A DNA stretch of 64,000 bases, taken from Octopus vulgaris. Its lineage: Eukaryota. Positions 57,896 to 58,242 of the stretch are shown here, in pieces. The position numbers and the translations under genes were made by a program. The notes under the pieces are model-generated. The model was not told where the DNA came from. It worked only from the letters and a program-made list of their open reading frames with translations, and searched no databases. The stretch lies in assembly GCA_951406725.2 (NCBI GenBank), contig OX597834.1:12710001-12774000 (forward strand). Direction: 5' to 3'. Numbering within the stretch: position 1 is the first letter of the stretch; the number at the start of each line of letters is the position of its first letter.

Positions 57896-58242
57896 ATAAA
57901 TATTAGGGAATAAATCCAAATTTACAGGGAAAAAAATCAGATTTAGGATTAAATCCAATTTTATATTAAAATATTATATAATATTAATTCGAGACAAAAC
58001 CACTATTTTGCAAAACAAACAAGGAAAGACTTAATCAATACATAAAAATTTTAATATAAAGTAAATAAACCGCCACTACAATCGTTTCATGTCTTCAAAT
58101 GACATTCGTCAGGTGGATTTCCGATCTTCTAATCAGTTTTAATTTATGATTAATTTATGGTTTATTTACTTTATATTAAAATTTTTATGTATTGATTAAG
58201 TCTTTCCTTGTTTGTTTTGCAAAATAGTGGTTTTGTCTCGAA

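What the first reader, a model, noticed from the sequence alone, without database searches (positions are those of the whole stretch)
58073..58116. Covariation supports a functional hammerhead in the foldback family
Seen: relative to 5932-5974, stem II changes from UUGUC/GACAA to AUGUC/GACAU (compensatory), the loop is replaced, and core position 7 changes from A to C. All invariant core bases, stem I and stem III are retained. Changes fall only where hammerheads tolerate them, implying selection on the fold in active source elements.
Basis: partly seen in the sequence, partly recalled or inferred. Interest (0 to 1): 0.7.

Follow-up and report, generated by a model that had tools for sequence, protein, structure and literature searches.

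The report
Hammerhead in Penelope-type retroelement end
This is a predicted self-cutting hammerhead RNA at the head of a short, very abundant repeat that likely is the end piece of a Penelope-like jumping gene; the differences between its two copies here spare the fold, but such hammerheads and such variation are already known in animals.

Summary
58073-58116(-) is a complete type I hammerhead motif. It differs from 5932-5974(+) at core position 7, in loop II and at one stem II pair (U-A to A-U). A third copy lies at 5169-5211(-). The strict motif has 3 hits in the window and none in 100 shuffles.

The covariation is one pair in two distinct sequences. The pattern beats random placement (p 0.002-0.04), but the unchanged core is unsurprising at 3.4% tail divergence (p 0.32). 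Rfam gives 10.7 bits against a gathering score of 34.

New support: helix III plus loop III is self-complementary. Most family depth in three public runs shows a perfect palindrome, and the window's variant still pairs through G.U. This is the dimer-hammerhead signature.

The 'foldback family' has the known Penelope-like-element (PLE) insertion layout: an inverted 5'-truncated copy, a one-sided tail of about 80 bp, (TA)n flanks and 3'-biased depth. No PLE protein gene was found, so membership rests on architecture. A larger alignment and cleavage were not tested. Verdict: new member of a known kind, modest interest.

The parts
58073..58116 (-). Type I minimal hammerhead, copy B; predicted scission after A17 at 58077
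58089..58105 (-). Stem II (5 bp) and 7-nt loop II of B; 58105/58089 is the one compensatory pair (10.1-11.1)
58078..58085 (-). Helix III plus loop III, an 8-nt self-complementary stretch (6 Watson-Crick plus 2 G.U pairs in a dimer, -5.8 kcal/mol)
   Evidence: family majority letter gives a perfect palindrome
57897..58126 (-). Family unit at locus B: about 10 nt upstream, hammerhead, about 175-nt AT-rich 3' part; 92% to the unit at locus A
57897..57974 (-). One-sided tail extension of B (about 78 bp, absent from the inverted copy); holds a predicted 13-bp hairpin (z -1.35, not significant)
58127..58158 (.). Sequence between the unit and the inverted copy at B; no other match in the window
58159..58255 (+). 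Inverted 5'-truncated copy at B, 97/97 complementary to 57975-58071; begins 5 nt 3' of the predicted scission site
57844..57895 (.). (TA)n flank, left of B
58250..58282 (.). (TA)n flank, right of B
5932..5974 (+). Hammerhead copy A, right arm
5169..5211 (-). Hammerhead copy A, left arm, identical to 5932-5974
4990..5221 (-). Family unit at locus A; very high summed depth in public runs, highest in the 3' part
   Evidence: table 2
4990..5071 (-). One-sided tail extension of A (about 82 bp)
5068..5498 (-). Left arm of the 432-bp inverted repeat (99.5% to 5645-6076)
5645..6076 (+). Right arm: inverted copy lacking the tail extension
5222..5498 (.). Non-family sequence inside both arms; pieces of other, lower-depth repeats; no protein family hit
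5499..5644 (+). Spacer of A with a weak RT_RNaseH_2 (Gypsy-type) match, E 7e-4, below the curated cut-off
4976..4989 (.). (TA)n flank, left of A
6068..6089 (.). (TA)n flank, right of A

Best explanation
The motif is a minimal type I hammerhead at the head of a roughly 230-bp, highly repeated unit that likely is the pseudo-LTR and tail of a Penelope-like retroelement, and it is predicted to cut RNA only as a dimer, likely with help from the element's protein. Shown: the motif; the self-complementary helix III; the layout at both loci (unit, inverted 5'-truncated copy, one-sided tail of about 80 bp, TA microsatellite on both sides); the high, 3'-biased depth. Inferred from published PLE work: an element-encoded reverse transcriptase/GIY-YIG nuclease nicks (TA)n DNA and starts cDNA at either of two fixed sites in the 3' part, giving the short and long ends; the cDNAs stop early and join head to head, sometimes carrying unrelated sequence (locus A). 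Inferred here: A and B came from different source subfamilies whose hammerheads diverged where the fold allows, which points to past or continuing selection on the RNA fold in source elements. The two genomic loci are ORF-less by-products; at A, long arm pairing would hide the hammerhead in a read-through RNA.
For: Motif beyond chance: 3 hits versus 0 in 100 shuffles. Changes confined to tolerated sites, p 0.002-0.04; excess at free sites, p 1.5e-4. Computed hammerhead fold -4.5/-5.4 kcal/mol as a monomer, not the MFE; -12.7/-13.6 for one active half of a dimer. Loop III majority letter in public runs makes a perfect palindrome (83%, 54% and 99% of depth in X3, X2 and X8), and the window variant keeps 8 of 8 pairs via G.U. 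Both loci share the same short and long ends within TA ambiguity. Depth in the 3' part is 3-25 times the hammerhead bin, which is 9-129 times the upstream bin. Literature: inverted 5'-truncated copy, one-sided tail and microsatellite bias in PLEs (PMC8557442); minimal hammerheads in pLTRs, dual motifs 100-700 bp apart on opposite strands, short helix I, small palindromic helix III in flies, rotifers, shrimps and mosquitoes (PMC4209133); two RT start sites bounding the tail, protein-assisted cleavage (PMC11167929); unrelated DNA captured by pLTRs (PMC3846280).
Against: No PLE reverse transcriptase or GIY-YIG sequence was found next to either copy, so no link to an autonomous element is shown. 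The tail is about 80 bp against the published 30-40 bp. Two hallmarks of PLE minimal hammerheads are missing: G10.1-C11.1 and the extra base after A9 (PMC4209133). Rfam score is far below threshold. Covariation is one pair in two sequences; no family rows for stem II were among the 40 of 96 variant rows shown. The loop III difference lies in a CpG, so some palindromic copies could be CpG decay products (inference), and 2 of the 4 possible transitions in that loop would keep dimer pairing anyway (arithmetic). The one common variant shown in the tail hairpin (5048, 17-36% of depth in the three large runs) breaks a pair by my reading. For an Anolis PLE, cleavage was not needed for insertion in vitro and no RNA-seq reads began or ended at the site (PMC11167929).
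Confidence: 0.62

Rival explanations
1. Same Penelope-type origin, but the hammerhead is relaxed or vestigial. The U-A/A-U swap is a coincidence at two loosened positions or a template-switch repair of a DNA hairpin, and says nothing about present catalysis.
For: One pair, two sequences. The conserved G10.1-C11.1 is absent in both copies. Invariance of the core is expected at the tail's rate (p 0.32). Most copies by depth lack the hammerhead. Template switching can produce compensatory changes without RNA selection (PMC8794818, abstract). In vitro insertion does not need cleavage (PMC11167929).
Against: The motif carries 6 substitutions in 43 nt (p 0.003 at the tail's rate), yet none at an invariant site. 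A whole-hairpin inversion does not convert A into B. Both loop III states keep dimer pairing. Natural hammerheads with even a U-U pair at 10.1-11.1 exist (PMC3088659; PMC7229834).
Confidence: 0.24
2. A non-LTR retrozyme: a 170-400-nt non-coding monomer that self-cleaves from tandem arrays, circularises and is reinserted by a PLE enzyme; these loci would be dispersed monomers.
For: Size of about 230 bp, low GC, type I hammerhead, no ORF, very high depth. Retrozymes are proposed PLE pLTR derivatives with many monomers (bioRxiv 10.64898/2026.07.22.740005).
Against: Neither locus is a head-to-tail repeat. No joint from the unit's end back to its start was listed in four runs (table 5; short contigs weaken this). 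Depth is strongly 3'-biased. Retrozymes carry canonical hammerheads with a longer helix I (PMC7229834).
Confidence: 0.1
3. A MITE or foldback DNA transposon with terminal inverted repeats, in which the hammerhead look-alike is incidental.
For: Inverted arms and TA flanks.
Against: Arm lengths (432 versus 97 bp) and spacers differ between loci; one end carries about 80 extra bp at both loci; depth decays from the 3' end; the motif is absent from 100 shuffles.
Confidence: 0.04

Closest known systems
Minimal hammerheads in pseudo-LTRs of endonuclease-bearing Penelope-like elements (Cervera and de la Pena 2014, PMC4209133)
   Same: Type I, full core, 4-bp helix I, tiny palindromic helix III, found mostly as ORF-less single or opposite-strand paired motifs, in families with compensatory changes.
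   Different: No G10.1-C11.1 pair and no extra base after A9; helix II is 5 bp; no ORF linked here.
PLE insertion layout, e.g. Pen2a_Av (PMC3846280), Fig. 2 legend of PMC8557442, Poseidon of Anolis (PMC11167929)
   Same: Inverted 5'-truncated copy, tail at one end only, two fixed 3' ends, AT-rich or microsatellite target, capture of unrelated DNA.
   Different: Tail of about 80 bp rather than 30-40 bp; no coding sequence recognised in the tail; clade (Poseidon, Neptune, Nematis, Hydra) undetermined. Naiads also target (TA)n but lack canonical hammerheads, and six short words from this unit did not match in that paper's supplement.
Non-LTR retrozymes (PMC7229834; bioRxiv 10.64898/2026.07.22.740005)
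   Same: Short, non-coding, abundant, type I hammerhead.
   Different: No tandem arrangement seen; minimal rather than canonical hammerhead; inverted layout.
Rfam Hammerhead_1 (RF00163)
   Same: Aligns at exactly 58073-58116 over model positions 3-43.
   Different: 10.7 bits against a gathering score of 34; copy A is not matched.

Membership tests
Hammerhead ribozyme, type I | Core C3 U4 G5 A6 N7 G8 A9, G12 A13 A14, A15.1-U16.1, H17 | tested here: met
   consensus as listed in PMC3088659
Hammerhead ribozyme, type I | Paired bases next to the core in stems I, II and III | tested here: met
   11 of 11 pairs standard in both sequences
Hammerhead ribozyme, type I | Rfam RF00163 gathering score | tested here: not met
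   10.7 of 34 bits for B, no hit for A
Hammerhead ribozyme, type I | Self-cleavage 3' of H17 | not testable with these tools
   only contigs, no raw RNA reads, were offered
PLE minimal hammerhead | Short helix I and short palindromic helix III allowing a dimer | tested here: met
   4-bp stem I; 8-nt self-duplex -5.8 kcal/mol; perfect palindrome in the family majority
PLE minimal hammerhead | G10.1-C11.1 pair and an extra base after A9 (typical in PMC4209133, not universal) | tested here: not met
   U-A in A, A-U in B, no extra base
PLE minimal hammerhead | Covariation across family members | tested here: inconclusive
   1 pair in 2 sequences; 40 of 96 variant rows shown, none in stem II
Penelope-like element (EN+) | ORF with telomerase-like RT and GIY-YIG nuclease in some copy | tested here: inconclusive
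   none beside the two loci; no genome held
Penelope-like element (EN+) | Inverted 5'-truncated copy at the 5' end | tested here: met
   2 of 2 loci
Penelope-like element (EN+) | Tail extension at one end only | tested here: met
   2 of 2 loci, same two ends, about 80 bp, longer than published
Penelope-like element (EN+) | AT-rich or microsatellite target and frequent 5' truncation | tested here: met
   (TA)n at 4 of 4 ends; 3'-biased depth in 3 of 3 large runs
Non-LTR retrozyme | Head-to-tail tandem repeats with a hammerhead per unit | tested here: inconclusive
   not at either locus; no joints listed, but contigs are short
Non-LTR retrozyme | Circular monomeric RNA | not testable with these tools
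   needs raw RNA reads or bench work
MITE / foldback DNA transposon | Fixed, symmetric terminal inverted repeats | tested here: not met
   arms 432 versus 97 bp, asymmetric ends

The most novel reading that the evidence does not exclude
The 230-bp unit is a self-standing, ORF-less parasite of Penelope machinery with its own 5' end about 10 nt before the hammerhead (four to five different continuations meet near 5221 in the window and), amplified to thousands of copies or more. Its hammerhead cuts in vivo: the inverted arm at B, which begins 5 nt from the predicted scission site, would be a fossil of a cleaved template. A genome-wide pile-up of 5' junctions at that site would then be genomic evidence, which I did not find in the papers read, for the open question whether animal PLE hammerheads act in cells. 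The foldbacks would also turn captured host sequence into long double-stranded RNA.
Probability: 0.17. Interest if true: 0.55.

Novelty: new member of a known kind. Interest (0 to 1): 0.24.

Why it matters
Animal PLE hammerheads are weak in vitro, and their role in cells is unresolved (PMC4209133, PMC8557442, PMC11167929). A young, very abundant family with two loop III states, a non-canonical 10.1-11.1 pair and many 5' junctions is a good natural data set for asking whether the fold is selected and whether cleavage leaves marks in insertions. The pairwise covariation itself adds little to what is published.

Tried and rejected
No genome is held, so no family alignment could be built.

Rfam over the whole window at E<=1 showed only microRNA-family hits among the 150 of 387 rows displayed; the 8 alignments printed lie on simple repeats.

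Pattern scans for relatives: viral contigs gave 0, 0 and 0 and 23 hits for a relaxed core. 0 of those 23 had a stem I of more than 2 bp, so all were rejected. Metagenome contigs gave 0 and 1; that hit, L024, lies in a bacterial ORF and was rejected as chance. Genome contigs gave 0.

Read-through translations of 5490-5974 found no PLE protein: Pfam on 6 of 6 frames, homolog searches on 2 of 6 frames (weak negative).

No listed holder run is on record as RNA, which says nothing on expression. Only 4 of 24 listed runs were laid, on locus A's left arm and spacer only.

Single-strand folding does not favour the hammerhead monomer (z 0.55 and 0.71), and the tail hairpin is not significant (z -1.35 and -1.86). 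Whole-hairpin inversion does not explain A versus B; 5-6-nt reverse-complement matches to the loops are chance-level.

Earlier scan notes: nothing by sequence, place or the long word list; one search listed other genomes' PLE notes.

Literature searches listed no paper on this family. Repbase and Dfam could not be searched. Lunse et al. 2017 is not held. The supplement of PMC13282606 was listed but not read, and line breaks could hide matches in the PMC8557442 supplement.

Full report
Observation. The window is AT-rich animal-type DNA full of microsatellites. It looks like an octopus genome to me; that label is recalled and comes from no call. A core scan and self-BLAST found the hammerhead motif three times: 58073-58116 on the minus strand (copy B), and 5932-5974 (+) and 5169-5211 (-), which are identical (copy A). 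A strict descriptor with paired stems I and II finds exactly these 3 and none in 100 shuffles. Of 11 pairs, 10 never vary and 1 changes on both sides. Rfam places Hammerhead_1 exactly on B but at 10.7 bits (gathering 34, E 6.4) and only in a 76-nt query; A is not matched.

How strong is the covariation? With 6 substitutions placed at random, the fold survives in 0.2% of trials, and survives with a compensatory pair in 0.08%. If the loop counts as fewer events (4 or 3 changes), survival rises to 1.6-4.3%. The free sites changed far more than the tail (4 of 7 versus 6 of 177, p 1.5e-4). However, no change at 33 constrained sites has p 0.32 at the tail's rate, so 'all invariant bases retained' is weak by itself. 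It is one pair in two sequences chosen after the fact. The pair is also the one that is usually G-C (PMC4209133; PMC3088659), and two free positions would be complementary one time in three. Template switching can create compensatory changes (PMC8794818); a simple hairpin inversion does not explain A versus B. The arms within each locus are 431/432 and 97/97 alike, whereas A and B differ by 3.4% in the tail and 6 of 43 in the motif.

Family evidence. Twenty of 24 listed public runs, from 10 studies and five coded organisms, hold part of the stretch; none is on record as RNA. I laid four of them on 4992-5644. Summed depth in the three large runs is 3e4 to 1.7e6 over 4992-5211 and 16 to 5e3 beyond 5234. 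The 3' part peaks at 3-25 times the hammerhead bin, which is 9-129 times the upstream bin. The tool warns that this is no copy number; it shows a very abundant, 3'-biased family. The only variant inside the hammerhead among the 40 of 96 rows shown is at 5179, the first base of loop III. It holds 83%, 54% and 99% of depth in X3, X2 and X8, and 0% in X15. It turns helix III plus loop III into a perfect 8-nt palindrome; the window's version still pairs 8 of 8 with two G.U pairs (-5.8 versus -6.4 kcal/mol). The hammerhead fold is computed at about -5 kcal/mol as a monomer and about -13 for one active half of a dimer. This is the dimer signature described for PLE hammerheads (PMC4209133; PMC6765202; PMC3088659). 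Caveats: the site is a CpG, and 2 of 4 transitions in that loop would keep pairing. Rows for stem II were not shown, so family-level covariation stays untested.

What the foldback family is. Each locus is one insertion between (TA)n runs. It has a full unit on the minus strand, an inverted copy lacking about 80 bp at the 3' end, and the same short and long ends at both loci. At A both arms also carry 277 bp of non-family sequence, around a 146-bp spacer with a weak Gypsy-type RNase H match. At B the inverted arm is 97 bp and begins 5 nt 3' of the predicted scission site. This layout is the published PLE one: an inverted 5'-truncated copy, a tail at one end and microsatellite bias (PMC8557442); two internal RT start sites bounding the tail and AT-rich cleavage (PMC11167929); capture of unrelated DNA by pLTRs (PMC3846280); and dual minimal hammerheads 100-700 bp apart on opposite strands (PMC4209133; here about 720 bp apart). 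What is missing is the protein: no RT or GIY-YIG sequence beside either locus, and no genome to search. The depth drop at 5222 marks where locus A leaves the family. Whether it is the family's natural 5' end is open. Loose ends at 5212 in X2 and X8 resemble B's upstream letters, while those at 5221 in X8 and X15 differ from each other and from A and B (24 of 359 rows shown).

Mechanism. Shown: motif, palindrome, layout and depth profile. Inferred: a PLE protein acting in trans or in cis nicks (TA)n, primes cDNA at two sites in the 3' part, and joins two truncated cDNAs head to head. In source elements the hammerhead would cleave precursor RNA as a dimer, probably slowly and with protein help, as for the Anolis element. 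There, cleavage needed the protein, was dispensable for insertion in vitro and left no read ends in RNA-seq (PMC11167929). I put 0.62 on a PLE pLTR hammerhead under selection in source elements, 0.24 on the same origin with a relaxed motif, 0.10 on a retrozyme and 0.04 on a DNA foldback element.

Novelty. Searches listed no paper describing this family, and word searches of the PMC8557442 supplement did not match it. Repeat databases could not be searched, and recently active Penelope families are already reported in Octopus vulgaris (PMC13282606, Table 1). The class, the dimer fold, the covarying families and the inverted layout are all known. What differs is the non-canonical 10.1-11.1 pair, the longer tail and the junction near the scission site, which is a single case with roughly a 1 in 20 chance by my estimate. 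Verdict: new member of a known kind, interest 0.24.

What I saw of each paper. PMC4209133: parts 1-2 of 4. PMC11167929: parts 1-2 of 4. PMC3846280: parts 1-4 of 5. bioRxiv 10.64898/2026.07.22.740005: parts 1-2 of 5. PMC8557442: passages and supplement word searches. PMC7229834, PMC3088659, PMC2837043, PMC6765202, PMC2377424, PMC13282606 and PMC8967140: passages. PMC8794818: abstract. Lunse et al. 2017: title in a reference list only.

Noticed in passing
window 58159 (paired with 58071): The inverted arm at B starts 5 nt 3' of the predicted scission site (58077), as if copied from a cleaved RNA; single case.
   Followed up: partly
window 5046-5180, run X15: In the run guessed to be RNA, 9 of 16 variant places are T>C on the plus strand (A>G on the hammerhead strand), against 4 of 55 in X3 and 5 of 65 in X2 (Fisher about 6e-5). 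Probably one contig of depth 5; a hint of A-to-I editing only, with no matched DNA.
   Followed up: partly
window 58105-58076 (-): B has an ATG at the start of stem II, where the Anolis PLE ORF starts (PMC11167929), but it stops after 9 codons; A lacks this ATG.
   Followed up: no
window 5222-5644: Mosaic of pieces from other repeats carried inside the insertion. An X8 contig matches 5222-5349 with 2 differences but continues without the hammerhead unit (table 8), a possible source of the captured DNA.
   Followed up: partly
window 5065-5083: Many contigs start or stop here with AT-rich loose ends (table 7), matching the short end; a 16-nt AT palindrome sits at the equivalent place in B (57970-57985).
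   Followed up: partly
window 57897-57960 (-): The tail extension has two similar 18-20-nt repeats and a predicted 13-bp hairpin; both the short and the long end have TAATATT just before (TA)n.
   Followed up: no
window 19735-20424 (+): 229-aa frame with a zf-RVT domain (E 2e-8), a LINE remnant.
   Followed up: no
window 59286-59627 (+): Tc1-type transposase scrap (HTH_Tnp_Tc3_2, E 0.0015, below cut-off).
   Followed up: no
window about 7200-12400: About 5 kb of low-complexity AT-rich microsatellite with GC skew near -0.98 over 8001-12000.
   Followed up: no
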